From: an uncultured Alphaproteobacteria bacterium
GTDB taxonomy: Bacteria; Pseudomonadota; Alphaproteobacteria; CAAHEQ01; UBA3637
Reading direction: 5' to 3'
DNA length: 64,000 nt
Assembly (NCBI GenBank): GCA_937888725.1
Contig: CALARE010000009.1
Coordinates: 970 to 64,969, forward strand
The notes under the pieces are model-generated. The model had not been told where the DNA came from and searched no databases. It saw only the letters and a program-made list of their open reading frames with translations. Every line of letters starts with the position of its first letter. Within the stretch, counting starts at the first letter, position 1. A program made the position numbers and the translations under genes. This document shows positions 15,638 through 43,976 of this stretch, one piece after another.

Positions 15638-15651
15638 AGTATAGCCCCCGC

Positions 15652-27555: not shown

Positions 27556-27632
27556 CGGAGTATAGCGCAGCCTGGTAGCGCACTCGTCTGGGGGGCGAGT
27601 GGTCGTGGGTTCAAATCCCGCTACTCCGACCA
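27556..27632 (+). tRNA. tRNA-Pro (anticodon GGG)
   Basis: Acceptor CGGAGTA/TACTCCG, anticodon arm CTCGT-CTGGGGG-GCGAG, T-arm GGTTCAAATCC, CCA encoded. Confidence 0.8.
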
Positions 27633-27639
27633 AATCAGA

Positions 27640-27670
27640 AAAAGACCACTTTTTAGTGGTCTTTTTTTTG
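27640..27670 (+). terminator. rho-independent terminator after tRNA-Pro
   Basis: aaagaccac…gtggtcttttttt hairpin plus T-run. Confidence 0.6.
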
Positions 27671-27801
27671 ATTTAGCCTGGAGAAGCGGGTTTGAAGTCA
27701 CGAGAAAGTGGGTTCAACCGCCGAAAAAAGGCAGACGAGAGTATGCCGGTTTTGTTTTAACAAAATTTTTCAAGGTCTGCGAAGGCTTTAAGCCGAAAGC
27801 A

Positions 27802-27822
27802 AAATCCCGCTACTCCGACCAA
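27802..27822 (+). repeat. 21-bp direct duplicate of the tRNA-Pro 3' end (att-like scar)
   Basis: aaatcccgctactccgaccaa is identical to 27613-27633. A further partial T-arm copy, gtgggttcaaccgcc, lies at about 27709-27723. Confidence 0.65.
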
Positions 27823-28171
27823 TATCAAAAAGCGGAAGTTTATACTTTCGCTTTTTTTGTTATCCAATTCCCCTGCAAAGCCCTAGGACAGCCAACTGTT
27901 AAAAAGTGATTTTATACCAAAATCGATGTGATTGCCGAGATTTTTCCAAATTGATATATACTTTTGCCCGAATATATATACCTTGTGCAATGTGATTTTT
28001 TCGCCAGAGCCACTTGACCGTAAGTTATTGTTTTTGAATAATTGATTATAATGGTATGACATTAACTTTCCGAATCTTGCCAAGCAGTGGTTGGTTTAGA
28101 AACCCAAAAACTGATATCACAATTTATACACCTCTCTAAAAGCCTTATTTTATAAGGGGTTTAATTTTTTT

Positions 28172-28193
28172 ATAACTTACACACATGGTGTTT
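28172..28193. repeat. 22-bp direct repeat flanking the two-gene helicase module (right-hand copy is at 37878..37899)
   Basis: ataacttacacacatggtgttt versus acaacttacgcacatggtgttt, 20 of 22 identical. Confidence 0.6.
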
Positions 28194-28239
28194 ACTATGC
28201 TATCTAATTATATAGTTTGATATAAAAATTCTTCGGCAT

Positions 28240-31200
28240 TTAATTCTTAGTGTAAAAAATTCTAGTTGGATAATTATCTCCTATTATGCTAGGTAATTCA
28301 ATGCTAATTTTTTGAACTTGAAAATCAACACTAGATTCAAATGGGAATAAATTTTCATAGTAATTGTACGCAGCACATCTCCAATATAAAAATCCTTGAT
28401 CGAAAATTAGATTTATAACATCCCCATTTTCTAGCTCAATAATTAAAATTCTATTGTGTTCTAGATATTTTTTATTTCTTTCTTGAATATTAAATTTTAG
28501 ATCAATGCTTGCAAACAATTTATTTAAAACAGCCTTGCGTTCAGATGATCTAGGCCATTCATCGTAAAATTTACCAGGTGTATATTTTATATTATCTTCA
28601 TTTTCACATGTTAATAAATTAATTTCAGTACACTTCCAATTATTTGCATATTTATTTTTTATTGCCTTTATAAAATTAAAGAATAAACCACAAGAAAGAG
28701 GATTTTTGATATAACGATCTTTGTACGTTATTTTTACTATATTGGATGAAATTCCGTTATTTAAACTCTCAGATAAAATATTTAACAAGCTTTGACCAAA
28801 TAAATTTCCGGAACAGTTTACTTCAGAGGAAATATTATACATTTTATCAAAGCTTGTTTTGATATCGCTGTTTAATGCTACATCGTAAAATTCTTTTTTA
28901 TCAATATCAATATATCCTGAAAGAATTGAAGTATTAACATTACTTCCCCAATATGGATTTAATTTTTTTACATCTTGATCTAAAGAAGCATAAGCATAAA
29001 AACCGGTACCGTTATTTATAACAGCCATTATATTCTTATTCAAATTATCTGGAATTGACTTTATTGAAACATTTTTATACTTAGAAAGCAATCCTAGAGT
29101 TTCTTTTACATCGTCACTGATTTTTGTCGCATCAACACATAAAATTGTATCAATTCCCATGGAATTATATCTATTTACTAATCTATATAATGGTGAGTTT
29201 AAAAAATCTTCATCATCATCTTGTTGGGGTACCAACAAATACAATTCCTTAATACTTAGAGTATCTTCAATTAAACTTTCGATACTGGCCGAAGCGATAA
29301 CTGTGGTATCGCCAAAAATTTTCATATTGTCGGCTAAAGTATTTTTTGAAATCCATTCATCTGTTAAAAAGTCTAAAGCTAATAACCTATCTAGGTGTTT
29401 ATAGTTGTATTTAGTATCATTTTGTAAAATACATTTATTACATGATTGAGCACAGTCACAAGTTAATGTATCTTTGGCATACTTAAATATGCGACTTAGA
29501 TTTTTGATAATATCATCAGATGAACAATAACCTGATGCATTTTTATCAAACAATTCTATTGAAAATCCTTTTTTATTTGATCCAACAAGTTTTATTTCTT
29601 TTGTTCCACAGCCAATTTCGTCAGTTTCGATATTCATATATTTGGCTATACCACTGCGAATTGCTACTGCCAATGAATATGCGAGAGTTTTATCGTTAAC
29701 AATTTCTCCGTTAATATCTGATAAAATAAGTTCCAAAACATCAGTTTTGACTTCAACTCCTAGAGAAATATTTTCCACTATTGAATATGGAGAATGATTA
29801 CATTCTACTTTCATATTTCTCATGTTGGGATTAAAACTATTTGCACTTCTTAAACGATAATGTGATTTTCTAAACTCAACTCTGTTCTTTTCATTGTTTG
29901 CAACAACTCTGCCACACTCTAAACAAAGTATGTAGCCGTCACCACCGCCATTTGAGTAATGAATGACACTTCCTTCTTTATCATTTTTATATTTTATGTA
30001 AGGTAAACCCAAATAATTATTTAAATCATTGTGAGCAGTAACTAGTGGTTCACATAAATTTACAAAATGTTGAACAGATACGTTATTATTAACGGGAGCA
30101 TTAAAATCAACAGAAAAACCTGCTGGCTGTATATACTTGTGAATATTATGTCTATCGATTTCTTCACCACATACATCACAGTGAATATCTAGTAATCTTG
30201 TTGATGTACCACTTGCACCACATTTATTACAACGCCAAAAATAACGAATTGACTGAATTTCTTTAACCTCTGTTTCTGAGGCAGGAATATGCCAATTTAG
30301 TGTAATACCTGCAGATTTATATACAAGACCATCAATAACAACATCGCTACCGGGAGCGTACTCTCTTAATGCTGTGCAAATATCTCTTGAAGGCAATTCT
30401 CTTCTTTTAAATAAATTGTCTTCTCTTTCTCCATAATTCTTTTGCATTCTATAGTCTTGATTTTCGATGCTATATCGATTGTTTGTATCAAAAGTTACGA
30501 TATTTATTGGAAAACCATATCGTGGTAAAATTCCATATCCTATCATTTCTTTTAATAGGTATTCATGCAGTAAGCGTGTCTCAGTATTTTTAATAGCGAT
30601 TAAACTAATTTTATGATCTTTTTCTCTCTTTTTTTGCTCTTGAATTGCATCATATTCAGCAAACCACTTCTTTTGCATATTTTCAATTTGCAGGCTCAAT
30701 TCTGAGACAAACACATCAAAACTAATATGTTCATAATGTGTATTTTTGATTAAAGAATGAATAGCCGCCTGAACTCGATTATTTGTTCTGATAGCATCTT
30801 TGCAGAAACGTTTAAATTTGGAAAGCTTATTATCTTTAAAAGGTAACATAAGCCATTCCATATTAAGTTTGGTCGCATCACTAATTTGGCCTTTAATTGA
30901 TTCAAAAAAGTAGGATAACAATAAAGAATTTATATGTCTCAATAATACAATAAAGCTGTATTGATCTACGTAAGGAGCATTTATTTTTGATGTAAATGCC
31001 CATTTGGGATGATTAAAAACATATTGGTCATGAGAGTTGTCTTTACATAAAGTAAAGCTTATCGCCTTTGTTTCTCTACGTCTTCCTGCACGTCCTGCAC
31101 GTTGTAAATAATTGGCCGGATGTGGCGGAACATTATTCATAGATGCAATCGTTATACCACCGATATCAACACCCATTTCCATTGTGGTTGAACAGTTAAG

Positions 31201-34200
31201 AACATTTATAGCTCCACTTTTAAATTCATCTTCATATCTTTTTAATAGTCGATGAGATTGTTGAGCCGAGTGTTCCGCTGTTCTGAAATATCTATTTCCA
31301 AGGATAATTGAGCTTGCAACGTTGCTCCATAACCCAAGTTTTTTTAAATTTTGTACATCTTCGTTGCTTTCAAGCCAATCTCTTCTTAATGAAATACATT
31401 CTTCATAAGATTTTCCTAGTTCATTTTTAAAATCATAAATTGGATAATTATATTTATTACACTTAGGGGTCGTTTTGCTTGAAGAATAAGGAGAATACCC
31501 TTTAAGTACAACATCTAAAGCCTTATTTGTCATAGGACAAATATAAATTTCTTTAGGTCTAGTTAAACCGATTTTATTTACATCTAATTTATATGTTTTT
31601 GCCGTTGACGGTGTTAAAATTCCAGTGGTAATTGTTAAAGCATCCCAAGCTTCTTTCATAATTTGATTTAAAATATCTAAATGAAGATCATTATCTATAC
31701 TTAAATCAAGAGCATATGACAATAAATTTATTATATTTTTATTTTTTTTCTTTTTTGCTACAGGCCAGTTTTCCTGATCTAAAGCTCTGTTTGTTCTTTG
31801 AAGAGCTCCCCATTTATTCCAGTTTTCAGGATAAGCAACATATCCATTGGCACGAATATAAAAATCTATTAGTATTTTAAGAAAGTCTTTCCATTCATTT
31901 AATTCAAAAAATCTATGTATAGTATCTGGTACTTTCGTGATTTTGCTAAAATCATAAACTGTTGATAACAATCCTAATGTTTCAACATTATTCGCTTTTT
32001 TCGGTCTTCGTAATAGTTCTCTAGCAAACAATATTTCTATTAAATTACGACGTCCTTTATCTGCATCAAAAATGGAATCTTTATCTCGATAATAATTATA
32101 TATCCATCTTAAATCATTGTCGTTAAATTCTTTTATTATTTGATTTAAGACCTCGTCTTCTTTTGCAAAAGAATCGTGTTTTTGTTCCAATTCTTTAATT
32201 GCATTTAATAAAGCAGGAAGTTTTGTCGTTTCATATAGTTTTTTTAATGCTGCAATATCAGTACTTCCTGATGGTTTTGTTTTTTCTTGTTCTAATAATG
32301 AAACAACGTGTAATAAGATACTTCTGAAACTGTTTCTTTCGGAGTTTTGTTGTAGTTGAACAGCTAACCTAGCAGTTCCCTGTCGGCTATCTGTAAAACA
32401 TATCATTTTCTGTCCTTTATGAGGATTTTCATCCAATTTTTCTCCTGCTTCAGCATAATTTAATAATGTCGGTAAAGCATGACTTAAAACAAATGGTGCA
32501 CCTTGCATAGGAAGAAATGATTTGATTTGGTCAATTTCAGGAGTATCACAACAATGGACATATTCATCATCTTCAAAAACATTTATCTTAATTCCATTTT
32601 CACAATTGCTAGACAATGAATTATCTGCAGTATTCAAATAAACAGAAGAATTATCATCTACATTGTAAATATATGCTGTGTGAGTTTCCAGTTCTACAAT
32701 ATTATTTTCTTCGTCTTCCAATGAAAACTCATCAACATTTTGCAACATCGTAGGATATAAGTATTTAGTGCCTGATTTTTTATCTTCACTGATTTTTGCT
32801 TCTAAGAAAGGTGTTCCACAATTTGAACAGGCTTTTACTCTGAAAACAGGAGCACCACATTCACAAGAGCATTGTTCTTTTAAGTAAATTTTTCCGTATT
32901 TCCACCCATCTATGTTGTCTTTATGCGTACATTTATCATTGCAGCAGGCCCATATACCAGGAAACGTCTTATGGAATAAATGCAAACGAAGTGGCAAAAA
33001 CGCCTTTTCTTTATTAGGAGTAACGGATAATAAATCAAGCCATTCTGCTGCTTCTTCCTTTGAAATTTTAAAAGTCTTACATATTTCTGATAAGGTTCTA
33101 GCAACAGAACGTGTCCCATCTTCAGAAATAAAGAATGATCGTAATTGGCAAGCAAATTTATTGTTTTTTAATTCTTTAATAAGTACATCAGGATCCGTTA
33201 TAATTTGCAGCTCAGATAATGATTTTGTTTGATTATCTGCTGTAATCGTTGGAATTTCATTATGTCCAAAAACAACTTCAATATTTTCTTCATTAACACC
33301 TGAAATACTTGATAAAAATTGTTTTAATTGCTGTTCTGCGTTTATGCTTCCGATAGTAGCAGATGTTGCGATAAACTTAACATCTTGAGCATTTACATCA
33401 AATGCATCTAAAACTCTCTTCAGAAGTAATGACAACTCTGCAGCTTGTGAACCAATATATGTATGAGCTTCGTCTAGAATAATGTATTTTAACATTCCCT
33501 TAGATTTATCAATAATTTGCTTATCATTTGCTCTAATAAGCATGTACTCTAACATCGTAGTATTGGTAATCAATAATGGTGCAGGAGATAAGCGAAGTCC
33601 CTGTCTATCGGTTATTTCTTCCAAGGATTTTTTTTGTTCGTGATTTGGATTTTCAGTAGGTAATAATCCATTATAAAGACAGAAACGAATTTTACCTTCG
33701 TAAGGTTTAGTCCATTCGCTAAAACGTTCTTTTTGGTTCTGAATTAATGCATTAAGAGGATATATAAATAAAGCCTGGACACCTTCTAAAACGTTTGAGC
33801 TACCTTTAGATTGTCTTACCAAATCAGATATGATGGGTATCATAAAGCATTCTGTTTTTCCTGAACCTGTACCACTTGAAACAACCAATGAATTATTTGT
33901 ATTTAATAATGTTTTCCAAGATGTTATTTGGTGTTCATAAGGGTGCATTGTTTTAGAAAATCTATATTCTGTAGATTTATTTAATACATTAACAAAAGAA
34001 CGTTCGAGCAGTTTTCCGGACAACTCTTCAAAAGAATTGCTATCTGTTTTATAACTAAACATTGGTTCAAACACAGGGTCAGAAAGGAATTTTTCATCTT
34101 CCAGTGAAAACTTATCTCTTAAAAACTCACGCAAATTTTGTGGCAATATGGATAAAGTGCTCATAATGGCATCTTTTGATTGCTCTGGTAATATTTTTAA

Positions 34201-34227
34201 GATTTCACTGTAACTGTTTCTTTTCAT
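28240..34227 (-). CDS. giant DEAH-box helicase with a DUF1998/MZB-type zinc-ribbon domain and an unknown ~600-aa C-terminal domain (DruE-like, 1995 aa)
   Basis: Motif I SSGTGSGKTE, motif II ILDEAHTY, motif VI QRAGRAGRR. After the helicase core come paired CxxC zinc ribbons (CNKCG…CDVCG, CLECG…C…C, CDCAQSCNKC). It is translationally coupled 1 nt after the upstream gene. Confidence 0.6.
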   Translation of the reverse strand: MKRNSYSEILKILPEQSKDAIMSTLSILPQNLREFLRDKFSLEDEKFLSDPVFEPMFSYKTDSNSFEELSGKLLERSFVNVLNKSTEYRFSKTMHPYEHQITSWKTLLNTNNSLVVSSGTGSGKTECFMIPIISDLVRQSKGSSNVLEGVQALFIYPLNALIQNQKERFSEWTKPYEGKIRFCLYNGLLPTENPNHEQKKSLEEITDRQGLRLSPAPLLITNTTMLEYMLIRANDKQIIDKSKGMLKYIILDEAHTYIGSQAAELSLLLKRVLDAFDVNAQDVKFIATSATIGSINAEQQLKQFLSSISGVNEENIEVVFGHNEIPTITADNQTKSLSELQIITDPDVLIKELKNNKFACQLRSFFISEDGTRSVARTLSEICKTFKISKEEAAEWLDLLSVTPNKEKAFLPLRLHLFHKTFPGIWACCNDKCTHKDNIDGWKYGKIYLKEQCSCECGAPVFRVKACSNCGTPFLEAKISEDKKSGTKYLYPTMLQNVDEFSLEDEENNIVELETHTAYIYNVDDNSSVYLNTADNSLSSNCENGIKINVFEDDEYVHCCDTPEIDQIKSFLPMQGAPFVLSHALPTLLNYAEAGEKLDENPHKGQKMICFTDSRQGTARLAVQLQQNSERNSFRSILLHVVSLLEQEKTKPSGSTDIAALKKLYETTKLPALLNAIKELEQKHDSFAKEDEVLNQIIKEFNDNDLRWIYNYYRDKDSIFDADKGRRNLIEILFARELLRRPKKANNVETLGLLSTVYDFSKITKVPDTIHRFFELNEWKDFLKILIDFYIRANGYVAYPENWNKWGALQRTNRALDQENWPVAKKKKNKNIINLLSYALDLSIDNDLHLDILNQIMKEAWDALTITTGILTPSTAKTYKLDVNKIGLTRPKEIYICPMTNKALDVVLKGYSPYSSSKTTPKCNKYNYPIYDFKNELGKSYEECISLRRDWLESNEDVQNLKKLGLWSNVASSIILGNRYFRTAEHSAQQSHRLLKRYEDEFKSGAINVLNCSTTMEMGVDIGGITIASMNNVPPHPANYLQRAGRAGRRRETKAISFTLCKDNSHDQYVFNHPKWAFTSKINAPYVDQYSFIVLLRHINSLLLSYFFESIKGQISDATKLNMEWLMLPFKDNKLSKFKRFCKDAIRTNNRVQAAIHSLIKNTHYEHISFDVFVSELSLQIENMQKKWFAEYDAIQEQKKREKDHKISLIAIKNTETRLLHEYLLKEMIGYGILPRYGFPINIVTFDTNNRYSIENQDYRMQKNYGEREDNLFKRRELPSRDICTALREYAPGSDVVIDGLVYKSAGITLNWHIPASETEVKEIQSIRYFWRCNKCGASGTSTRLLDIHCDVCGEEIDRHNIHKYIQPAGFSVDFNAPVNNNVSVQHFVNLCEPLVTAHNDLNNYLGLPYIKYKNDKEGSVIHYSNGGGDGYILCLECGRVVANNEKNRVEFRKSHYRLRSANSFNPNMRNMKVECNHSPYSIVENISLGVEVKTDVLELILSDINGEIVNDKTLAYSLAVAIRSGIAKYMNIETDEIGCGTKEIKLVGSNKKGFSIELFDKNASGYCSSDDIIKNLSRIFKYAKDTLTCDCAQSCNKCILQNDTKYNYKHLDRLLALDFLTDEWISKNTLADNMKIFGDTTVIASASIESLIEDTLSIKELYLLVPQQDDDEDFLNSPLYRLVNRYNSMGIDTILCVDATKISDDVKETLGLLSKYKNVSIKSIPDNLNKNIMAVINNGTGFYAYASLDQDVKKLNPYWGSNVNTSILSGYIDIDKKEFYDVALNSDIKTSFDKMYNISSEVNCSGNLFGQSLLNILSESLNNGISSNIVKITYKDRYIKNPLSCGLFFNFIKAIKNKYANNWKCTEINLLTCENEDNIKYTPGKFYDEWPRSSERKAVLNKLFASIDLKFNIQERNKKYLEHNRILIIELENGDVINLIFDQGFLYWRCAAYNYYENLFPFESSVDFQVQKISIELPSIIGDNYPTRIFYTKN

Positions 34228-34228
34228 G

Positions 34229-37200
34229 TTATCCTGCCAATTTTTGGTTTAACATTATAGATATTGCAATTTTATACACTTCTATAAAATAATTTTGGTT
34301 AAAATTTATAAAATCTTTTATTGAAAATTTAATTAATTCATTAATATTTGATGGGTTTGAATTAAGCTCTTGATAAAAAGAATAAAAAGCACAGACTTGA
34401 GGGAAATTAACAACATCTTCTATAAAGTAATTAAATTTATTCAATCTAAATAAATGTTTTTCAAGATTACTTAATTCTACCGGGTGTTTTACTTTTATTT
34501 CATTGTATACCTTATCAAATGGTAGATATATCCAATTATCTTCCTCTAATGAATTTTGTGTTTGTAGTTGATGCATCCAACACATTTCAACAATATTCCC
34601 GTATTCGTCAAATACTTGTTTTGTAAAAATTTCATCACTTAGCTCTTTAATACTTTTTGTATTTGCGATAGAAACATGAGGAACGATATTGCCAAGTATA
34701 AGAAAATTGTAAAACTTTGAAAGCAAACCGCAAAGTGAATAATATACAGCCAATTCTATTTCGGGGAATGTTTCAGACAAGATATTAAATTGCTCATTAA
34801 TTTGCGATTTTAGAATTTCTTCCATGCCTGGTATAGAAGAAAATGTTGTTTTAATATAGTTTAAATATTCTTCAATAGCAGGCTCCCAAAGTGAGAATGG
34901 GATAGTTGCCGGAACAGATATTACTTCTTCTTTTATTTTTTGAAGCATAAATCTATCAGATGAAAAATAGATGAGCAATCTGCATAATATTTTTTCATCT
35001 GAACATAATATTTGCCAAAGGTTCATAGATGATAGTGGAATGTCGTGTGAAACAAAAATTTGCTTCAAACTACTAATATCTTTCCATACATCAGATGAAA
35101 AATCTGAAAGGTTTGCAAGTATGATATCTTTTATTTGTTGTTTATTATCGGCCTCTAAAACAGCTTCTTCAATTTCTTCAAAAGAAGCATCTGAGTAAGA
35201 AATTTCATTTTTTAAAATTACTAATTTATATAATTCGGTAAGTTCATCTAGACTAGTATCACTATATAGAATTAGAGGTTTGGTGTTTATTTGAGATTTT
35301 TTATCAGAAACCAGGATGTAACAATTCTTTTTTAAATCAATTGGTTCAATACTCCAATATCCTGTACATATTTGGTCCTCCATCTTCTGCTCAAGAATAA
35401 CAGGTTCACATTCAGGATCGGATAAATTGATGGCTTTGACTATTGTGTTTTTGAGCATGTCATTTGTATACATACCAAAATTTGCAGGCGGTATATAAAC
35501 TGATTGGGTTTCTAGCAACAGATGTGTATCGTATCTTGAAACATTTATAAATCCCAAATTTTTATTTTCTAACGTTATAGATATTTTGACTTTGTCATCT
35601 TCATTTTCGGAATACCCAAATAAATTTTTTATATTGTCTTCAAAATCAATTAATTTAATCTCTGTTAATACGTCATTTGTGTATATATGGCGTGTTAAAG
35701 ACAAATTTTTACTTGTTCGTACTTTTGTACGTAATTCAAAATGAAGTTTATATTTTGAAGAAGATTTTAAGTTATTAAATATTCTAATTCTTTTGCCCAT
35801 TAAATGAACTAAAGAAATATTAGAAGAATTTATACATTTTTTATTTTCATCAAAAAATGATACTCCAACTGAAGGGTATGGAAGATATATCAGAGATGTA
35901 CCACCGCTATACCAATATATCTTAAAACATACTTTATCTGGTTTTGTTGTTGTAGTTTCAAATTGAAATTCACATCCATCAACTACTGTGCATTTTAATG
36001 AATCAGATAATAATGGTTCAATTTTAATGGCATTTAAACTATTAAGCTTAATTACTCCATTACCATTTTCCAACGCATTAAAATTTATTGATGAACTGGG
36101 TGGTAATATCGTCACGCTAAAAGTTTTAGAAATACCACCATGGGTACAATTGATATCAAGATTTCCCGAAAACTTATTGATGTCTACAATGGGGTGTGTT
36201 GTATCTTTGTAATAATAATTTATATATCGTGAAGAAACATCATTTTTTTTAGAAGTCTCATCATAATATATAATTTTTGGAATTCCACGATAAGCAACAA
36301 ATGGGAAAGTTTTATACGTTATAATATTGCCTTCTACACAATATTTATTGTTTGAAGGGTTAGATGAATTTAATTGAACAAAAAAGTCATCAAATTCAAA
36401 ACTTTCTTTGCATTTAATTAATCTGAAGACAATATCGTCAATTACAATATCAGTTACATATTCACCTACTGAACTATAATCATTGTTTTTTTCATTATAT
36501 GCTATAAAGCATTCGCTTTCTCTTAAATACGCACTTCCATTGTTTTTTAATATTAATAGGCCATCTTCGTTTTCAGTAAATACAAGGGGCCTATTAACAT
36601 CAATTGATTGAGAAATTGTGATGCTATTTGATTGTATTTTATTATCAGCACTGGATAAAAATAATGTTACAGAATTTTTGACATCAAGTCTATCGTCAAA
36701 TTGTCTTATTTTATACTGTTTTTTTGATCCAAGTATTAAGTTTACAATAGCAATTGTTGTATTTTCGCTATCTAAGTTATTGATATAAAATGTTTGAGGT
36801 AATGTATTTACATCAGTAATTCCAAAATATTTTGAAAAATATTTAGCCTCTACATTAAATTCAGGAAAAATAAATTGAAATTTTAATTTATTTGAATTTT
36901 CTAAATCCAGTATTCTTTCAACTGTTGGGATTTTCCCCTGTACTCTCACTCCTGTGGAACGACTTGCTTCTTCTACGAAACCACTCAACATTTTTTCAAC
37001 AGATGCATCCTCCATAAGAAGAGGAAACTGAGACTTCCAATCTGGAGCTCGTTGATTTAATATTTGAATTGGATTTTTATACTCTTGTAGCTTATAATCT
37101 ATTTTTAGCTTGATAATAGTTGTTACTAAACTTGTAATAAGTTCACAAATTTCATCTTTTCTAATGGCTTCAGGAAGTATTTTTTGCAGATTTTTAACAT

Positions 37201-37720
37201 ATGCAAATAATTCAGCTCCGTTTGAAGTATGCTCTGTTGCAAATCTAATTGTATGATGCAGTATTTTTACAACAGGAGAATTTTTGCTTGCTGCTTGTAT
37301 AAATTTAGAAGGAATACCACCATTTGCTACAATTGCACCTAAATATTTTTTACCAGAAACTAAAGTTATGTTATACTTCCAGTACTGTAAAGCTTCTATA
37401 ATTGCATTGGTTCTTACGTTGGATTGATATATTTTTAATTCGTCATTGGAAATAGATGAAAATATGGGATCCCATGACCAAGCACCACCCTTGTATTCAC
37501 GTTTCCACCATTCAGAAGCATAAAGCACAAAGCAGCGAGAAAAATACTTATTTTTAAGCAAATCTACGAGCGAATGGTATTGACAGCAATATTTTAGTTT
37601 GTTTCTAAGGTCTTCGTATTCTGCTTTGTTCATCTGATATGCATAAAGCATCATGCCATTTGGGTAAGGCATATTCCTTTTTTGTAAAAAATCTCTTAAA
37701 AATTCATGTAATATTTCCAT
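34229..37720 (-). CDS. large hypothetical protein (~1163 aa) with no recognisable motifs, upstream partner of the helicase (DruH-like by position)
   Basis: Long uninterrupted ORF. The start is chosen at the ATG at 37718-37720, preceded by AAAGGTG (the ORF-track start at 37756 has no RBS). The stop is 1 nt before the helicase ATG. Confidence 0.5.
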   Translation of the reverse strand: MEILHEFLRDFLQKRNMPYPNGMMLYAYQMNKAEYEDLRNKLKYCCQYHSLVDLLKNKYFSRCFVLYASEWWKREYKGGAWSWDPIFSSISNDELKIYQSNVRTNAIIEALQYWKYNITLVSGKKYLGAIVANGGIPSKFIQAASKNSPVVKILHHTIRFATEHTSNGAELFAYVKNLQKILPEAIRKDEICELITSLVTTIIKLKIDYKLQEYKNPIQILNQRAPDWKSQFPLLMEDASVEKMLSGFVEEASRSTGVRVQGKIPTVERILDLENSNKLKFQFIFPEFNVEAKYFSKYFGITDVNTLPQTFYINNLDSENTTIAIVNLILGSKKQYKIRQFDDRLDVKNSVTLFLSSADNKIQSNSITISQSIDVNRPLVFTENEDGLLILKNNGSAYLRESECFIAYNEKNNDYSSVGEYVTDIVIDDIVFRLIKCKESFEFDDFFVQLNSSNPSNNKYCVEGNIITYKTFPFVAYRGIPKIIYYDETSKKNDVSSRYINYYYKDTTHPIVDINKFSGNLDINCTHGGISKTFSVTILPPSSSINFNALENGNGVIKLNSLNAIKIEPLLSDSLKCTVVDGCEFQFETTTTKPDKVCFKIYWYSGGTSLIYLPYPSVGVSFFDENKKCINSSNISLVHLMGKRIRIFNNLKSSSKYKLHFELRTKVRTSKNLSLTRHIYTNDVLTEIKLIDFEDNIKNLFGYSENEDDKVKISITLENKNLGFINVSRYDTHLLLETQSVYIPPANFGMYTNDMLKNTIVKAINLSDPECEPVILEQKMEDQICTGYWSIEPIDLKKNCYILVSDKKSQINTKPLILYSDTSLDELTELYKLVILKNEISYSDASFEEIEEAVLEADNKQQIKDIILANLSDFSSDVWKDISSLKQIFVSHDIPLSSMNLWQILCSDEKILCRLLIYFSSDRFMLQKIKEEVISVPATIPFSLWEPAIEEYLNYIKTTFSSIPGMEEILKSQINEQFNILSETFPEIELAVYYSLCGLLSKFYNFLILGNIVPHVSIANTKSIKELSDEIFTKQVFDEYGNIVEMCWMHQLQTQNSLEEDNWIYLPFDKVYNEIKVKHPVELSNLEKHLFRLNKFNYFIEDVVNFPQVCAFYSFYQELNSNPSNINELIKFSIKDFINFNQNYFIEVYKIAISIMLNQKLAG

Positions 37721-37877
37721 ATAGGCACCTTTAATGAATACAATATTGTATTTCATAGCATATTTTTTTTAATTATTCAACAAACTTCATTATTAGAAGT
37801 GCCAAAAAATGACGTTTGTTCATATGTTTTTTTGCAAAAATAGTTAAGGTATCTACTTTAAGGAACTTTAATATTTT

Positions 37878-37899
37878 CTACAACTTACGCACATGGTGT
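37878..37899. repeat. 22-bp direct repeat, second copy, in the divergent promoter region
   Basis: See 28172..28193. Confidence 0.6.
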
Positions 37900-38020
37900 T
37901 TGGGGTATATAAAGAGATTTTCATTTTTTTTGAAAAAAATGACTATTTTCTTGCAATTTTAGGTATAAGTCGTTAAAATGTGACGGATTATAATTTTATG
38001 CTGATAAATGAGGTGTTTTC

Positions 38021-40069
38021 ATGGCAGACGATATTCAAATTCAAAAAATGGACGGCAAGAGCCTTGATGTGACGGGCGTAAACAAGGAAAAGTTGAAAAC
38101 GGTTTTTCCTGAGTGTTTTACCGAGGGTAATTTGGATATTGATAAACTGTTGTCTTTATGTGGTGAATACATAGACAACGATTTTGAAAAGTATAAATTT
38201 GAATGGAAAGGCAAATCTGAATGTTATCGGATTACTGGTAAGCGTTCAACCGGGACACTTCGTCCTTGTGTGGAAGAGAGCGTGGATTTTGAAAACACCA
38301 ATAATCTTTATATTGAAGGCGACAATTTAGAAGTTTTGAAACTTTTACAAACAGCCTATTATCGCAAAGTCAAAATGATTTATATTGATCCGCCGTATAA
38401 CACAGGCAATGATTTTGTTTATGAAGATGATTTTAAGAACCCGATGGCAAAATATAAAGAAATTACAAGCCAAACAACAAAATCAAATCCCGAAACAATG
38501 GGCAGATATCATACCAACTGGTTGAATATGATGTATCCTCGCTTGCGTTTAGCCTCTAACTTACTTCGTGATGATGGTGTGATTTTTATCAGCATTGATG
38601 ATAATGAAGTTACAAATCTTCGTCGTTTATGCGATGAGGTATTTGGGGAGGAGAATTTTGTAGCTCAATTTATAGTAGCCTCTAATTCAACAAAAAATAA
38701 TTCAAAATATGTTTCTGTTTCTCATGAGTATATTTTATGTTACTGTAAAAATATCTACTCACTTGGAGATGAGTGGAAAGTAAAAAAGAATAACGTTGAT
38801 GAATATTACAATCGTGCAATGCAACTTGTTAAAAGAAATTTATCAGAAGATGAGATTCATAATGAATTATTAGAGTTGGTAAAATATCCAAGATTTTATG
38901 ATTTAGATCACTATACCTATGCGGATAAAAAAGGAATATATCAGACAGATAATCCTGGTGGAGTAACCAATGGAAATATGCTTACGGAAGTTATTCATCC
39001 TGTAACAGGAAAAGTCTGTGCAAAACCCATTGGGGGTTGGAGATATAAAGATGAAGAAATCAAAAGATTAGAAAAAGAAGGTTTGTTAGCTTTTGGTAAA
39101 GATGAGACAATCGTTCCTAGACCTAAACGATATTTAGGGGATTATATTTATCAAGTTCCTAAATCAACGCTTTTCTTTGACTCTCAATCATCTACAAAAT
39201 GGTTAAAAGCTAATAATTTGCCTTTTGATTTTGCAAAGGCAGTTGATTTTATAAAGTATATTTTATCTACCTCATCTAAGGAAGACGATATCATTCTTGA
39301 CTTTTTCTCAGGCTCTGCAACTACGGCTCATGCAGTTATGCAATTAAATGCCGAAGATGGTGGCAAACGTCAATTTATCATGGTGCAATTACCGGAAGTA
39401 ACCGATGAAAAGTCTGAAGCATTCAAAGCCGGATATAAAAACATTTGTGAAATAGGTAAAGAGCGTATCCGTCGTGCCGGTGCTAAAATCAAAGCAGAAG
39501 ATGATTTATGGAAAGAAGTTCCTCTTAATCGACTTCCCACACCAGAAGCACAGGCTTGGGTGCCTCCAAATTTAGTTAGAGTAGAAGACTTAAAAGATAG
39601 AAAATCACCAATAGAATATGTTGATGAAAGTAAAAATCCTGATGTTGGCTTTAAAGTATTCAAATTAGATACTTCAAACCTTGTTAAATGGGATGATACT
39701 CCTATTGAAGGGGTTGATACAACCGATTTGTTTAATCGTATGGACGGTATGGTTGAAAGCATTAAAAAAGACCGGACCGAACTTGATGTTGTCTATGAAG
39801 TAATGTTAAAACTCGGGATTCCCTTGACATATAAAGTCTTTGAAAATGAAGTGAATGGTCGCAAAGTTTACTCTATTGGCGATGATGGGTTGATTTTGGT
39901 ATGCTTGGATAAATCAAATGGCGGCATTACACCGGAAGATATTTCTGCTATGTGCGATTTAACACCGGCTAAAATCGTAGCTGCAGAAGAAGCCTTTAAG
40001 GACGATGTCGCTCTTTCAAACGCTTACTACATCTCAAAAGACAAAGGCGTGGAAATAGAATTGTTGTAG
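38021..40069 (+). CDS. mod: Type III R-M-like N6-adenine DNA methyltransferase (Mod, beta-class)
   Basis: Motif IV DPPY (IYIDPPYNTGNDF) N-terminal to motif I FLDFFSGSATT, ~680 aa, GAGGTG RBS. Confidence 0.75.
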   Translation: MADDIQIQKMDGKSLDVTGVNKEKLKTVFPECFTEGNLDIDKLLSLCGEYIDNDFEKYKFEWKGKSECYRITGKRSTGTLRPCVEESVDFENTNNLYIEGDNLEVLKLLQTAYYRKVKMIYIDPPYNTGNDFVYEDDFKNPMAKYKEITSQTTKSNPETMGRYHTNWLNMMYPRLRLASNLLRDDGVIFISIDDNEVTNLRRLCDEVFGEENFVAQFIVASNSTKNNSKYVSVSHEYILCYCKNIYSLGDEWKVKKNNVDEYYNRAMQLVKRNLSEDEIHNELLELVKYPRFYDLDHYTYADKKGIYQTDNPGGVTNGNMLTEVIHPVTGKVCAKPIGGWRYKDEEIKRLEKEGLLAFGKDETIVPRPKRYLGDYIYQVPKSTLFFDSQSSTKWLKANNLPFDFAKAVDFIKYILSTSSKEDDIILDFFSGSATTAHAVMQLNAEDGGKRQFIMVQLPEVTDEKSEAFKAGYKNICEIGKERIRRAGAKIKAEDDLWKEVPLNRLPTPEAQAWVPPNLVRVEDLKDRKSPIEYVDESKNPDVGFKVFKLDTSNLVKWDDTPIEGVDTTDLFNRMDGMVESIKKDRTELDVVYEVMLKLGIPLTYKVFENEVNGRKVYSIGDDGLILVCLDKSNGGITPEDISAMCDLTPAKIVAAEEAFKDDVALSNAYYISKDKGVEIELL

Positions 40070-40079
40070 AGGTGTTGGG

Positions 40080-40802
40080 ATGATTTTTATATTTGAAGAA
40101 ATAATAACAAAAGGTTTTTGGGATTGGATTGAAACAATAGCCACAATATTGGGTAATATTGGTCTTTTTATTATTACTTTTTACGTATTCTGGAAACAAT
40201 ATTTTTCAAAAAATATAAAAATAACTTCAAGCGGAGAACATTCGTCTATTTACTTTGGAAATGCGATTAACTGTACGCTTTTTAACAAGACACTTTCACC
40301 TGTTGTTGTTGAAAAAATTGATGTTGTATATGATAATAAATATGAAGTAACTATAAAAGATTTTAAAGAAAATCCTCTTGTTCTAGAATATTTTAGATCA
40401 GCTTATATTAAAGGGGAAAGATATACTTCATTATCTGAAAAATTAAATACTCTTTTTGCAAGAGATGTCTATTATAAAGTCAAAACCCCAGATAAAACTA
40501 TACTGATAAAAAGTAGAGGAAAAATAAAGAAGAAAAATAAACTTACGCATATTGCAACATTTACACAACGTTTTGATGATACTGTAATTTCAAAAGGTGT
40601 ACGCTATGTTTTAATTTATTGGCTAAAAGGAACTAAGGAATTTAATAGGGTATTCATTTTAGATAACGGTATGATGGACAAGAATATTGCAAACTTCAAT
40701 CAATTACCAAGAGAAATTCTTGGCAAACCAAAAGAAATGTTAAAGTTTTTTAAAGAAACATTCAACAATCCAGATTTAAATATTCGGATTCATGAACTTT
40801 AA
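40080..40802 (+). CDS. small membrane protein of unknown function inserted between mod and res
   Basis: 240-aa ORF with an N-terminal TM helix (IATILGNIGLFIITFYVFW). An AGGTG RBS sits 10 nt after the mod stop. Confidence 0.5.
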   Translation: MIFIFEEIITKGFWDWIETIATILGNIGLFIITFYVFWKQYFSKNIKITSSGEHSSIYFGNAINCTLFNKTLSPVVVEKIDVVYDNKYEVTIKDFKENPLVLEYFRSAYIKGERYTSLSEKLNTLFARDVYYKVKTPDKTILIKSRGKIKKKNKLTHIATFTQRFDDTVISKGVRYVLIYWLKGTKEFNRVFILDNGMMDKNIANFNQLPREILGKPKEMLKFFKETFNNPDLNIRIHEL

Positions 40803-40829
40803 TCAGTTTATTGCCAAGTGAGGATATTA

Positions 40830-43800
40830 ATGAAACTAAAGTTTAAGAATCAAGAATTTCAGACCGATGCCGTGAATGCGGCGGTGGAGCTGTTCAAAGG
40901 CCAAGAAAAAGCAAATATGACTTTTTCAATCGCTGATAACTCCGCGCAAGCCTCTTTTTTGCAAAATGAATTCGGTTTTGGTAACAAGTTGGTGTTAGAT
41001 GAGGAAACAATAAACAACAATCTTCATGCAATCCAAAAAGCTCATTCTCTCCCCCAAACCGATATTGAATCTGGCAAAGCCTTGCCCATTTCTATTGAAA
41101 TGGAAACCGGAACCGGTAAAACCTATGTTTACACAAAAACTATTTTGGAACTCAATAAACGTTATGGTTTTACAAAATTTATCATTGTTGTGCCAAGCAT
41201 TGCTATTCGTGAAGGTGTGAATAAATCTTTCCAAATCACCGAAGAACACTTTAAAAATCAGTATGACAGCGTGCCTTACAGATATTTTATCTATAATTCG
41301 GCTAAACTGTCTGATGTTCGGGCTTTTGCAACCTCCAGTAACATTGAAATTATGATTATCAACATTGATGCTTTCAAAAAAGCTGAAAATATCATCAATC
41401 AAGAGCAAGAAAAGCTCAATGGCGAAACCGCAATGAGATATATTCAAGACACAAATCCGGTTGTGATTATTGATGAACCGCAAAGCGTTGATAATACACC
41501 TAAGGCAAAAGAAGCCATTGCGACCTTAAATCCTTTGTGTGTCTTACGTTATTCTGCAACCCACAGAGAAAAGCAAAATCTTGTCTATCGTTTAACGCCG
41601 GTTGATACTTATCAAATGGGATTGGTTAAGCAGATTTGTGTTATTTCAAACTCGGTTATCAACGATTCAAACAAGCCTTACATTGCATTAAAATCTGTTT
41701 CCAGTAGCGGTGGATTTAGTGCCAAAATTGAAATCGATGTTGAAGGTAAAGACGGTAAAGTGTCCCGTAAAACAATAACCGTTAAGCCGGGAGATGATCT
41801 GTACTTAAAATCAGGACATCGTCAATTATACGAAGGCTATGTCGTGGCCGGTATTGACTGTACAAGCGGTTATGAGTGTATTGAATTTTCTAATGCCGAA
41901 TGCTTGAATTTAGGTAAAACCATCGGTAGTGTTGATGAAAGTATCATTAAACGAGCTCAGATTTATCACACCATCAAAACACATTTGGAAAAGGAAATCC
42001 GCTTGTTTGACAAAGGAATTAAGGTCTTGTCCTTGTTCTTTATTGATGAAGTTAAAAAATACCGTTTAGAGGATGGCGGACAAGGTATTTATGCCAAAAT
42101 GTTTGAAGAATGCTATAACGAATTGATAAATAATCCTCGTTATGCTGTTTTAAAAGAAAAGTTTAATACGGATGTTACCAAGGCTCATGACGGATATTTC
42201 TCTCAGGATAAAAAAGGTAAATATAAAGACACCAAGGGCGATACGCAGGCCGATGATGATACCTATAACACCATTATGAAAGACAAAGAAAAACTGCTAT
42301 CTTTTGAATGTCCGTTAAGATTTATCTTCTCTCACTCCGCACTAAAAGAAGGTTGGGATAACCCGAACGTTTTCCAAGTTTGCACTTTAATCGAGCAAAA
42401 ATCGGTCTTTACCTGTCGTCAAAAGGTCGGTCGAGGACTTCGTTTGTGTGTCAATCAGGATGGCGAACGCATTGAGGATAAAGACGTCAATGTCTTGCAT
42501 GTCATTGCTAATGAAAGCTTTGCCGAGTTTGCCGATAAACTGCAAAAAGAAATTGAAGAAGAAACCGGCGTTAAGTTTGGTGTTTTGGAAATCGGTATGT
42601 TGACAGGGTTAACTTACGAAGAAGAAGTTAAGGTTGAAAAACAAATCTCTCAGGAAACTGCCGAAACAGTTGTTCAAGAACTTCAAAAGACCGGCGTTAT
42701 TGATGATTGTGGGGCGGTTAATAAAGAAGTGGCCGTTGAAACAATTGAGCTTTCAAGTGTGCCGGAACCTGTTAAAAAAGAAATTATTGAAACGATAAGA
42801 CAGGAAAAACCCGTAACAGTTGCTGCTCTTTCGCAAACAACCTATACCGAAACAAAGGTTGAAAAAGTTTCTGTCAGCTATGAAGAAGCCGTTCAAATCA
42901 TGGAAGATTTAAAAGGCACTCAGGTCATTGACAGTAAAGGTAAAATCAAAGATACCATGAAGGCAGAACTGGCCGCCGGTACTTTGAATTTAAGCGACAG
43001 ATGGTCAAAGGCAAAACAACGTGCTGTTTTACAGGCCTTAAATAAAGCCGATAATAAACCGGTTATTCGGGATGCAAGCAAAGAAGTGACTGTTAAATTA
43101 AAGAAAAAAGCAATCCTTAGTCCCGAATTTATGGAATTGTGGAATAAAATCAAGCAAAAGACCACTTATCGTGTTCAATTTGATTTGGATACTTTGGTTG
43201 CAAACAGCATTAAAGAAATTAAGGAAATGCCCGAAATCGGAACGGCTCGCTTACTCAGTCAAACAGCCAGTGTTAATATTGAAAAATCGGGTGTTTCGCA
43301 CCAAGCAGGAAGAACATATATTCAAGATTTAACCCGTAACTATGAAACATTACCGGATATTTTACGCCTGATTTCCACGAAGACGCTTTTGAAACGGTCA
43401 ACAGTTAATCGTATTTTACAAGAAAGTGGTCGCATGGCAGACTTTTTGAAGAATCCGCAAGAGTTTTATGAAAAAACATTGGAAATTATTGAACGCAATC
43501 GTCATAAATTGGCTATTGACGGTATTAAGTATATTAAACTCGCCGATGAAGAATACTATGTTCAAGAAATTTTTGACAGCACTGAGTTGATAGCTAACCT
43601 TGATAAGAACGCAGTTGCCGTTGAAAACAGTGTTTATGATCATGTCATTTATGATAGTGGAGTTGAAAGCAAATTTGCTGTTGCCTTGGATAAAGATCCG
43701 GATGTTAAAATGTTCTTTAAAATCCCAAGCCGATTTAAAATTGAAACACCTATCGGAACCTATAATCCGGACTGGGCAGTTTATTTAGAGAAAAATGGCG

Positions 43801-43973
43801 AGCAAAAACTTTACTTTGTGTTAGAAACCAAAGGAACGGATAATTTATTCTTGCTTAGAGAAGAAGAAAAATTGAAAATCATGTGCGGAGCCGAACACTT
43901 TAAGGCTTTAGACGGCGTTAGTTTTTCAAAAAATCCTGTCAGAGAATGGAAAGAATTTAAACAAACGGTGTAA
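40830..43973 (+). CDS. res: Type III restriction enzyme Res subunit (SF2 helicase/ATPase plus C-terminal PD-(D/E)xK nuclease)
   Basis: METGTGKTYV (motif I), VIIDEPQS (motif II), QKVGRGLR (motif VI), and a C-terminal …YNPDWAVY…LETKG nuclease motif. GAGGA RBS. Confidence 0.75.
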   Translation: MKLKFKNQEFQTDAVNAAVELFKGQEKANMTFSIADNSAQASFLQNEFGFGNKLVLDEETINNNLHAIQKAHSLPQTDIESGKALPISIEMETGTGKTYVYTKTILELNKRYGFTKFIIVVPSIAIREGVNKSFQITEEHFKNQYDSVPYRYFIYNSAKLSDVRAFATSSNIEIMIINIDAFKKAENIINQEQEKLNGETAMRYIQDTNPVVIIDEPQSVDNTPKAKEAIATLNPLCVLRYSATHREKQNLVYRLTPVDTYQMGLVKQICVISNSVINDSNKPYIALKSVSSSGGFSAKIEIDVEGKDGKVSRKTITVKPGDDLYLKSGHRQLYEGYVVAGIDCTSGYECIEFSNAECLNLGKTIGSVDESIIKRAQIYHTIKTHLEKEIRLFDKGIKVLSLFFIDEVKKYRLEDGGQGIYAKMFEECYNELINNPRYAVLKEKFNTDVTKAHDGYFSQDKKGKYKDTKGDTQADDDTYNTIMKDKEKLLSFECPLRFIFSHSALKEGWDNPNVFQVCTLIEQKSVFTCRQKVGRGLRLCVNQDGERIEDKDVNVLHVIANESFAEFADKLQKEIEEETGVKFGVLEIGMLTGLTYEEEVKVEKQISQETAETVVQELQKTGVIDDCGAVNKEVAVETIELSSVPEPVKKEIIETIRQEKPVTVAALSQTTYTETKVEKVSVSYEEAVQIMEDLKGTQVIDSKGKIKDTMKAELAAGTLNLSDRWSKAKQRAVLQALNKADNKPVIRDASKEVTVKLKKKAILSPEFMELWNKIKQKTTYRVQFDLDTLVANSIKEIKEMPEIGTARLLSQTASVNIEKSGVSHQAGRTYIQDLTRNYETLPDILRLISTKTLLKRSTVNRILQESGRMADFLKNPQEFYEKTLEIIERNRHKLAIDGIKYIKLADEEYYVQEIFDSTELIANLDKNAVAVENSVYDHVIYDSGVESKFAVALDKDPDVKMFFKIPSRFKIETPIGTYNPDWAVYLEKNGEQKLYFVLETKGTDNLFLLREEEKLKIMCGAEHFKALDGVSFSKNPVREWKEFKQTV

Positions 43974-43976
43974 ACA

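What the first reader, a model, noticed from the sequence alone, without database searches (positions are those of the whole stretch)
28172..28193. 22-bp direct repeats precisely bracketing the two-gene helicase cassette
ataacttacacacatggtgttt (28172-28193, just downstream of the helicase stop) and acaacttacgcacatggtgttt (37878-37899, in the divergent promoter region) match at 20 of 22 positions in the same orientation. They enclose exactly the two large genes. This pattern is expected for cassette insertion or exchange at a hotspot, such as a site-specific recombination target or homologous-recombination anchors. The shared element could alternatively be a regulatory protein binding site.
Basis: seen in the sequence. 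Interest (0 to 1): 0.6.

Follow-up and report, generated by a model that had tools for sequence, protein, structure and literature searches.

The report
Insertion scars around a Druantia cassette
Two copies of a 22-35 bp sequence mark the spot where a two-gene anti-phage system (Druantia type III) was spliced once into a mobile defence island beside a tRNA-Pro gene; related bacteria still carry the unoccupied site, so this is a real but fairly ordinary insertion footprint, not a reusable docking site.

Summary
The repeat is real. They match 20/22, or 34/35 nt with one indel, far above chance. They bracket a 9,708-bp, low-GC segment holding only DruE3 and DruH3.

The predicted empty site exists. 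One same-species contig and four other gut alphaproteobacterial species carry a single copy, joining A's left flank directly to B's right flank and the mod gene. The motif is single-copy per genome.

It is not a demonstrated hotspot:
- Only one cargo and one insertion event are seen; three occupied contigs share identical A/B variants.
- Later recombination breakpoints lie inside mod and in the spacer, not at the motif.
- The same gene pair also occurs with copy A only, and with no copy beside a serine recombinase.
- The site has no dyad symmetry, terminal inverted repeats or attC-like fold, and the window has no recombinase.

Copy B is far more diverged than its flanks (4/35 vs 1/992 lineage-specific differences). 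It therefore looks like a homologous site brought in with the cassette, with crossover in the shared CACATGGTGTTT core.

The island lies directly after different tRNA-Pro genes. Verdict: a genuine insertion scar, modest interest.

The parts
27556..27632 (+). tRNA-Pro(GGG), the chromosomal anchor of the island
   Evidence: ARAGORN; Rfam tRNA match, 61 bits
27633..27821 (+). 169-nt integration remnant ending in a 20-nt duplicate of the tRNA-Pro 3' end (27802-27821). It is a separate scar, not part of the Druantia insertion.
   Evidence: Exact duplicate of the tRNA 3' end. The remnant is absent from same-species contig L002 and present in several tandem copies in L001.
27822..28159 (+). Conserved non-coding left arm ('spacer') of the defence island. 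It has a hypervariable block (27895-27953), a sigma70-like promoter (28014-28042) and a weak hairpin plus T-run (28143-28171).
   Evidence: It follows seven different tRNA-Pro 3' ends in related contigs (alignment). Promoter scan; fold; no Rfam family.
28160..28193 (+). Repeat copy A (34 nt; 22-mer core at 28172-28193). This is the resident version, identical to the single copy in every empty site.
28194..28239 (-). 46-nt 3' untranslated tail of the inserted cassette. It is shared with D-type and W-type contigs but not with L050.
28240..34227 (-). druE (Druantia type III helicase-nuclease, 1995 aa)
   Evidence: PADLOC DruE3, 1899 bits over the full length; Pfam DEAD and Helicase_C
34229..37720 (-). 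druH (Druantia type III partner). The ORF is callable from 37756 (1175 aa), but the conserved start MEILHEF at 37720 gives 1163 aa.
   Evidence: PADLOC DruH3, E 1e-92. Homologues and the D-type lack the upstream ATG.
37721..37866 (-). druH 5' region. It contains a 14-nt palindrome (37738-37751). The stretch 37752 to about 37800 is shared with L050. About 37813-37866 is found only in doubly bracketed (W-type) islands.
37867..37901 (+). Repeat copy B (35 nt; 22-mer core at 37880-37901). This is the diverged version: 3 transitions and 1 indel relative to A and to all empty sites. It shares the 12-nt core CACATGGTGTTT (37890-37901) with A.
37902..38020 (+). Resident mod upstream region, left intact by the insertion. 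It holds a 10+10 palindrome (37921-37942) and a TTGCAA-17-TAAAAT promoter (37951-37979).
   Evidence: Contiguous with the motif in all empty sites. Scans.
38021..46541 (+). Resident island cargo: type III R-M mod (38021-40069), a variable-slot ORF (40080-40802), res (40818-43973) and an SNF2/DrmD-like helicase (43977-46541).
   Evidence: Pfam and PADLOC. Homologous modules occur in L002, L023, L028 and L029.

Best explanation
The two copies are the left and right joints of one historical recombination event. That event placed a 9.7-kb, recombinase-less Druantia type III cassette (druE-druH) into a non-coding stretch of a pre-existing defence island. The stretch lies between the island's conserved left arm and the promoter of its type III mod gene.

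Shown:
- The unoccupied site with one copy exists in five related contigs.
- The occupied arrangement, with identical A and B variants, recurs in three contigs.
- Copy A equals the resident sequence.
- Copy B carries 4 differences in 35 nt, while about 1 kb of flanks carries only 1 lineage-specific difference.

Inferred:
- The incoming DNA carried its own, diverged but homologous, copy of the site.
- It recombined with the resident copy in a Campbell-type single crossover.
- The crossover lay in or just right of the shared 12-bp core CACATGGTGTTT (between 37889 and about 37906).
- This leaves a resident-type joint on the left and a donor/resident hybrid joint on the right.

The catalyst is unknown. 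I consider short-homology recombination, or a recombinase supplied in trans, about equally likely, with a slight preference for the former because the site lacks recombinase-site anatomy.

Afterwards the cassette spread passively. It travelled as part of the island, which is found directly after different tRNA-Pro genes. It also moved by ordinary homologous recombination between island variants, using the long flanks rather than the 22-mer.
For: - Empty sites: L002 (same species; flanks 98.7% identical) and L006, L008, L009, L010 (four GTDB species). Each has one exact copy of the A sequence joining A's left flank to B's right flank and mod.
- Occupied sites with the same A/B variants: L022 and L023, next to other tRNA-Pro genes.
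- Cassette GC is 27-31%, against 34-39% in the flanks.
- The cassette is 99.6-99.8% identical among occupied islands, while the adjacent mod region is about 96%.
- Lineage-specific fixed differences are 0 in 372 nt on the left and 1 in 620 nt on the right. Copy B has 4 in 35 nt (Fisher p = 5.5e-6).
- All three substitutions in B are transitions, which fits homology by descent rather than a chance match.
- The same gene pair occurs on another element beside a large serine recombinase, with homology ending at the druE stop codon. The pair therefore moves between mobile-element contexts.
Against: - No donor carrying a B-type site was found in the GTDB, JGI or IMG/VR pattern scans.
- No circular junction, and no second independent insertion at the site, is seen.
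- A perfect identity of only 12 nt is short for RecA-mediated recombination.
- The site has no dyad symmetry, inverted repeats or attC-like fold, and no recombinase is nearby.
- Recombination among islands could have erased lineage-specific differences in the flanks, which would exaggerate B's apparent excess divergence.
- Polarity (insertion versus deletion) is inferred from how widespread and diverse the empty sites are, not proven.
Confidence: 0.55

Rival explanations
1. Tandem accretion followed by deletion. A Druantia-only island (arm, motif, druE, druH) integrated at the tRNA-Pro gene in front of a resident R-M island that had the same arm. An internal deletion then removed the junction and all but the last ~35 nt of the second arm. 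Copy B would be that leftover.
For: - The tRNA-Pro site accumulates successive integration scars.
- Islands with arm, motif and Druantia but no R-M exist (L012-L018).
- Both island types begin with the same arm.
Against: - B should then look like an ordinary resident arm end. All five R-M islands have an identical 22-mer, yet B differs at 4/35 positions while the sequence immediately to its right is typical of R-M islands.
- The ~54 nt to the left of B match no arm or island end.
- The Druantia-only form lacks the druH upstream region that the occupied form shares with L050, so it looks derived rather than ancestral.
- The model needs two steps.
Confidence: 0.15
2. Reverse polarity. The doubly bracketed arrangement is ancestral, and the 'empty' sites arose by deletion of the cassette through recombination between the two repeats.
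For: - Direct repeats promote deletion.
- A crossover in the shared 12-nt core would leave a pure A-type copy, as observed.
Against: - The empty sites occur in five lineages that differ by 4-10% in the arm and in mod. All have the pure A copy and none has the occupied-lineage allele at 37906.
- The cassette is nearly identical (99.0-99.8%) wherever it occurs and has foreign GC content.
- The model would need one very old deletion, or several identical ones.
Confidence: 0.08
3. Target-site duplication. A transposase- or casposase-like enzyme made staggered cuts 22-35 bp apart, and the duplicated target later drifted in copy B.
For: Direct repeats lie exactly at the ends of an insert that has compact non-coding ends.
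Against: - From general knowledge, bacterial target-site duplications are 2-15 bp.
- There are no terminal inverted repeats and no transposase or Cas1.
- Copy B is over 100 times more diverged than the flanks.
Confidence: 0.05
4. A true site-specific cassette system. The 22-35-mer is an attachment site recognised by a recombinase encoded elsewhere in the genome, and the Druantia pair is a trans-mobilised cassette that can excise and re-insert.
For: - The cassette is compact, recombinase-less and carries one site copy at its end.
- The core is identical while the arm is diverged, as with attP x attB products.
- An empty site with a single copy exists.
- The same gene pair lies beside a large serine recombinase in L050.
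Against: - Only one event and one cargo are seen.
- Recombination breakpoints among islands are not at the site.
- There is no dyad symmetry or other site anatomy.
- L050 has neither the motif nor the flanking 46 nt.
- The cassette also exists with one copy only.
Confidence: 0.12
5. Functional motif. The sequence is a protein-binding or regulatory element of the mod promoter region, present twice for functional reasons.
For: - The single copy lies about 50 nt upstream of the mod -35 element.
- It is invariant in all islands sampled.
Against: - The neighbouring sequence is equally conserved, so the motif does not stand out.
- Copy A sits beyond the 3' end of druE, where it has no obvious target.
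- Prophage-borne versions of the same mod promoter lack the motif.
- A regulatory role does not explain the empty/occupied polymorphism.
Confidence: 0.05

Closest known systems
tRNA-linked genomic/defence islands bounded by att direct repeats (integrase-mediated; includes trans-mobilised CIME/IME-type elements)
   Same: - The surrounding island sits directly after the 3' end of tRNA-Pro genes.
- It is present, absent or allelic within one species.
- The cassette is bracketed by short direct repeats, and an empty site has one copy.
   Different: - The Druantia repeats are not tRNA-derived and lie 540 nt from the tRNA.
- No integrase is present in the cassette, the island or the window.
- The repeats are imperfect, with only a 12-nt identical core.
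- Only one event is documented.
Defence hotspots with no identifiable mobilisation machinery (E. coli hotspots, PMC10121019; P. aeruginosa core defence hotspots, PMC10250203)
   Same: - A defence system is inserted among other defence systems (type III R-M, SNF2 helicase) without mobility genes of its own.
- The locus is variably occupied across relatives.
   Different: - Those hotspots hold many alternative cargos between conserved core genes.
- Here one precise intergenic point holds a single cargo type.
- The island itself is mobile rather than chromosomal core.
Integron gene cassettes (attC x attI)
   Same: - A compact, promoter-poor, recombinase-less unit carries one recombination-site copy at one end.
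- After insertion the joints are hybrids.
   Different: - There is no attC-like imperfect palindrome or fold.
- There is no GTTRRRY core (direct inspection).
- There is no IntI and no array of cassettes.
Campbell-type integration by short or diverged homology (homology-facilitated or illegitimate recombination)
   Same: - A single crossover between a short shared sequence on incoming DNA and the chromosome yields direct repeats.
- One repeat is resident-type and the other is a donor/resident hybrid, as observed.
   Different: - The donor molecule and its circular form are hypothetical here.
- 12 nt of perfect identity is at the low end for such events.
Pipolins and other bimodular defence platforms integrated at tRNA genes (PMC11551731)
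   Same: tRNA-associated, repeat-flanked platforms that exchange defence cargo with other mobile elements.
   Different: No pPolB or tyrosine recombinase is present here. The exchange unit is a single two-gene cassette.

Membership tests
Druantia type III (the cargo) | DruE3-type large DEAD/DEAH helicase | tested here: met
   PADLOC DruE3 PDLC00037, 1899.7 bits over residues 2-1991. Pfam DEAD and Helicase_C.
Druantia type III (the cargo) | DruH3 partner encoded immediately upstream in the same operon | tested here: met
   PADLOC DruH3 PDLC00049, E 1.2e-92 over residues 17-1172. The genes are 1 nt apart on the minus strand.
Site-specific integrative element (att-flanked) | Direct repeats at both ends, and an empty site with a single copy in relatives | tested here: met
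Site-specific integrative element (att-flanked) | Integrase or recombinase encoded within or next to the element | tested here: not met
   No recombinase domain in any ORF of the cassette, the island or the rest of the window (Pfam; PADLOC).
Site-specific integrative element (att-flanked) | Recombinase-type site anatomy (inverted binding arms around a short overlap) | tested here: not met
   Only a 4-bp dyad, ACAC-ATG-GTGT. Symmetry of the attB-like and attP-like reconstructions is no better than in shuffles. Fold z-scores range from -0.25 to -1.6.
Site-specific integrative element (att-flanked) | Repeated, independent use of the same site (several events or cargos) | tested here: not met
   All three occupied contigs share identical A/B variants. 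The five other sites are empty. Breakpoints among islands lie elsewhere. Caveat: databases for this clade are sparse.
Integron cassette | attC imperfect palindrome with R''/R' cores, and IntI nearby | tested here: not met
   No significant hairpin at either cassette end. No integrase. No GTTRRRY/RYYYAAC pair by inspection.
Transposon / casposon | Terminal inverted repeats, transposase or Cas1, and an identical short target-site duplication | tested here: not met
   Inner ends show no inverted repeat. No transposase or Cas1. The repeats differ at 4/35 positions and are longer than known duplications.
tRNA-linked mobile genomic island (the surrounding island) | Inserted at the 3' end of a tRNA gene and found at different tRNA loci or hosts | tested here: met
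   The island arm starts right after CCGACCA of seven different tRNA-Pro 3' ends, of both GGG and TGG isoacceptors. It is absent from same-species L001 and L003.
tRNA-linked mobile genomic island (the surrounding island) | tRNA-derived direct repeat at the distal end, and an integrase | tested here: inconclusive
   The only tRNA 3' duplicate (27802-27821) bounds a 169-nt scar, not the island. The distal end was not located. There is no integrase in the window.
Xer/dif-type modules (IMEX, pdif) | 28-bp site with 11-6-11 architecture related to dif | tested here: not met
   No such symmetry. The sequence lacks the TTATG XerD-arm signature (inspection; the consensus is from my own knowledge).

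The most novel reading that the evidence does not exclude
The 22-35-bp sequence is the attachment site of a recombinase-less defence cassette system in gut Alphaproteobacteria. Two-gene systems such as Druantia III would circulate as circles carrying one diverged site copy, and be inserted or excised by a recombinase supplied in trans. The recombinase could be, for example, the large serine recombinase that accompanies the same gene pair in L050, or the enzyme that serves the tRNA-Pro island. This would be an integron-like logic for whole defence systems.
Probability: 0.1. Interest if true: 0.7.

Novelty: new member of a known kind. Interest (0 to 1): 0.3.

Why it matters
This is a clean, nucleotide-resolved example of how a complete anti-phage system is added to an existing defence island without carrying mobility genes of its own. 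The occupied site, the empty site and alternative contexts are all recovered from uncultured gut Alphaproteobacteria. It shows three layers of mobility at work: cassette insertion at a short shared sequence, island transfer between tRNA-Pro genes, and homologous exchange between island variants. If the short site proved to be a reusable attachment site, it would help answer the open question of how 'immobile' defence systems move between hotspots. On present evidence, however, it is a one-off scar.

Tried and rejected
- **Generic repeat:** rejected. There are 2 copies in the window and one per genome in GTDB relatives. The hits in Bipolaricaulota and in two JGI contigs are unrelated chance matches.
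- **Longer homology hidden upstream of the repeat:** rejected. Global and local alignments of the 110 nt upstream are at shuffle level, and BLAST of 37740-37905 finds nothing beyond the repeat.
- **Motif as a breakpoint for exchange between islands:** rejected. SNP-density transitions lie at about 38149 inside mod and in the spacer block 27895-27953.
- **attC-like hairpin, terminal inverted repeats, dyad symmetry:** none found.
- **Rfam family in the spacer or at the repeat:** none.
- **Motif as a general companion of Druantia III:** rejected. It is absent from the 74% and 60% homologue loci L011 and L026/27 and from L050.
- **Phage or plasmid origin:** not found. There is no DruH relative in IMG/VR and no megablast hit in PLSDB or INPHARED. 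There are no exact hits for cassette-end sequences in IMG/VR. Twenty viral mod homologues lack the spacer and motif.
- **Failed look-ups:** the window's own DruH, P0001 and SNF2 proteins were not retrievable.
- **Incomplete scan:** the JGI pattern scan missed JGI contigs known to hold the motif (L012-L021), so that collection scan is incomplete.
- **Island right end:** it could not be located. Look-ups were exhausted, and the right boundary of the 29-kb strain-variable region (about 56814) carries no tRNA-derived repeat.

Full report
**Observation**

The 22-mer ATAACTTACACACATGGTGTTT is at 28172-28193. Both are on the same strand and match at 20/22 positions. No further copy with up to 3 mismatches exists in the window, and none of 100 shuffles gave two matches.

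The similarity extends leftwards through a T-rich stretch to 34/35 nt with one indel (28160-28193 vs 37867-37901). The local score is 48, against 23.6 +/- 2.9 for shuffles. It then stops: the 110 nt further upstream align no better than shuffles. Start-to-start spacing is 9,708 bp.

**What is enclosed and what surrounds it**

- The two minus-strand genes are Druantia type III: DruE3 (28240-34227) and DruH3 (34229-37756, more probably starting at 37720). Homologues begin at the conserved MEIL…, and one set of near-identical copies lacks the upstream ATG.
- To the left lie TyrRS and tRNA-Pro(GGG) (27556-27632).
- To the right lies a type III R-M system (mod, a 240-aa ORF, res) followed by an SNF2/DrmD-like helicase.
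- The bracketed segment has 27-31% GC, against 34-39% on both sides.
- No recombinase, transposase or Cas1 is encoded anywhere in the window.

**Empty sites**

Contigs encoding exactly the window's TyrRS include L002. Its core flank is 98.7% identical to the window. In L002, tRNA-Pro is followed by the same about 350-nt non-coding 'spacer' and then a single copy of the 22-mer identical to copy A. Immediately after it come the sequence that follows copy B in the window and the mod start codon.

A scan of one genome per GTDB species for AACTTACNCACATGGTGTTT gave five hits:
- Four are gut 'Alphaproteobacteria bacterium' MAGs with the same single-copy empty-site structure.
- The fifth, and both hits in the JGI scan, are unrelated chance matches.

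The JGI scan evidently does not cover everything, because it missed JGI contigs that contain the motif.

**Other contexts of the cassette**

Cluster members of DruH gave three further arrangements:

1. *Both copies present (L022, L023).* These carry both repeat copies with exactly the same variants. The cassette is 99.6-99.8% identical to the window, but the contigs sit next to different tRNA-Pro genes in unrelated neighbourhoods.
2. *Copy A only (L012-L018).* These have spacer, copy A, druE and druH at 99.0% identity, but no copy B. Homology stops at a 14-nt palindrome in the druH 5' region (about 37751), and other genes follow.
3. *Neither copy (L050).* This has the same gene pair at 97.2% identity, with homology confined to 28239-37796. 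It has neither copy and its own terminator, and it lies beside a large serine recombinase and mobile-element-like small ORFs.

More distant Druantia III loci (74% and 60% DruH identity) lack the motif. The repeats are therefore a property of one particular arrangement, not of the cassette itself.

**The island**

The spacer begins immediately after the CCGACCA 3' end of seven different tRNA-Pro sequences, of both GGG and TGG isoacceptors. The whole region 27830-56814 is missing from same-species contigs L001 and L003. The Druantia insertion therefore lies inside a horizontally mobile, tRNA-Pro-associated island.

The tRNA site also carries separate integration scars:
- a 169-nt remnant ending in a 20-nt duplicate of the tRNA 3' end (27802-27821);
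- this remnant is absent from L002 and present in several tandem copies in L001.

The R-M plus SNF2 module has 86-93% homologues in prophage-like contigs. Those lack the spacer and the motif, and homology starts only at 37925 or 37991.

**One event, not a hotspot**

- All occupied islands share the same A and B variants.
- In pairwise comparisons the jump in SNP density lies at about 38149 inside mod and in a hypervariable spacer block (27895-27953), not at the repeats. Later exchange between islands therefore uses long homologous flanks.
- No alternative cargo was found at the site.

**Nature of copy B**

Across five empty-site islands and four Druantia-bearing islands, lineage-specific fixed differences number 0 in the 372 nt ending with copy A. 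They number 1 in the 620 nt following copy B (C to T at 37906). Copy B itself differs from copy A, and from every empty site, by three substitutions and one indel in 35 nt (Fisher p = 5.5e-6).

All three substitutions are transitions, which argues for homology by descent rather than a chance match. B is therefore not a fresh duplicate of the resident target. It behaves like a diverged homologous site that arrived with the cassette.

Divergence is high to the left of the 12-nt core CACATGGTGTTT and essentially nil to its right. This places the crossover in or just after that core. A Campbell-type single crossover between a resident site and a site on incoming, presumably circular, DNA would leave exactly this pattern.

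**What could not be shown**

- No donor with a B-type site, no circle junction and no second event were found.
- The site has no dyad symmetry above shuffles, no terminal inverted repeats and no attC-like fold.
- The catalyst therefore remains open: short-homology recombination or a recombinase acting in trans.

**Rivals**

Each of the following conflicts with at least one of three observations. These are B's excess divergence, the diversity and uniformity of the empty sites, and the absence of the relevant machinery.
- Tandem accretion of two islands followed by deletion.
- Reverse polarity, with the cassette lost by deletion between the repeats.
- A long target-site duplication.
- A purely regulatory motif.

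**Comparison with known systems**

The cargo is a bona fide Druantia III pair, a system whose mechanism is now being worked out (papers listed). The setting resembles tRNA-linked defence islands and pipolin-like platforms (PMC11551731). It also resembles defence hotspots in which no mobilisation machinery can be identified (PMC10121019; PMC10250203).

It fails the membership tests for integron cassettes, transposons or casposons, and Xer/dif modules. For 'site-specific integrative element' it meets only the repeat and empty-site criteria.

**Verdict**

This is a genuine, well-documented insertion footprint: a new member of a known kind, of modest interest. The residual novel possibility is a trans-mobilised cassette with a reusable attachment site, which I put at about 10%.

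Noticed in passing
window 27613-27632 and 27802-27821 (remnant 27633-27801); L001 about 9210-8560 (minus strand): The last 20 nt of tRNA-Pro(GGG) are duplicated 170 nt downstream, and each copy is followed by a terminator hairpin. The intervening 169-nt unit contains a further degenerate T-arm-like piece. It is absent from same-species contig L002 and present as 3-4 tandem units in L001. These look like nested scars of repeated integrations at tRNA-Pro.
   Followed up: partly
window 27822-28171: A 350-nt non-coding island arm is conserved at 90-99% across islands and sits behind seven different tRNA-Pro 3' ends. It has a hypervariable block (27895-27953) with three allelic versions. It also has a sigma70-like promoter (28014-28042) and a weak hairpin plus T-run (28143-28171), which together could define a ~120-nt small RNA. 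There is no Rfam match.
   Followed up: partly
window 40073-40825 (ORF 40080-40802): The slot between the mod stop and the res start holds different genes in different islands. Here it is a 240-aa ORF with no Pfam or PADLOC hit. L002 has a 316-aa ORF plus a KilA-N protein, L023 has an Mrr_cat nuclease, and L028 and L029 have Bro-N proteins. No flanking repeats were seen.
   Followed up: partly
window 37720-37756; palindrome 37738-37751: The longest druH ORF starts at 37756, but homologues and the D-type copies start at the ATG at 37720 (MEILHEF). A perfect 14-nt palindrome, ATACAATATTGTAT, lies just upstream. It coincides with the homology breakpoint to L012.
   Followed up: partly
L050 7855-9450 (minus strand) and 10001-19481: In GCA_045638265.1 the same Druantia pair (97% identical) lies beside a 531-aa large serine recombinase, a 55-aa ORF and small mobile-element-like genes (DUF3768, AAA_14/DUF4143). 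Homology to the window ends exactly at the druE stop codon.
   Followed up: partly
window 37925-46529 and 56705-56942; L028, L029: The type III R-M plus SNF2 module, and a short region at the far edge of the strain-variable segment, have 83-93% homologues in prophage-like contigs. L029 carries tail genes and a different large serine recombinase with DUF2924 and HTH_17. L028 has inverted tRNA-Pro 3'-end remnants upstream of mod.
   Followed up: partly
window 27830-56814: The whole 29-kb stretch is absent from same-species contigs L001 and L003, which instead have a NUDIX gene plus the tRNA scars. The stretch comprises Druantia, R-M, SNF2, and then a glycosyltransferase / radical-SAM / methyltransferase cluster and an ABC-F ATPase. 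No tRNA-derived repeat marks its right edge.
   Followed up: partly
window 37779-37836: A 16-nt inverted repeat (37779-37794 / 37805-37820) is followed by a T-run on the plus strand. It looks like a plus-strand terminator inside the druH upstream region, and only its left half is shared with L050.
   Followed up: no
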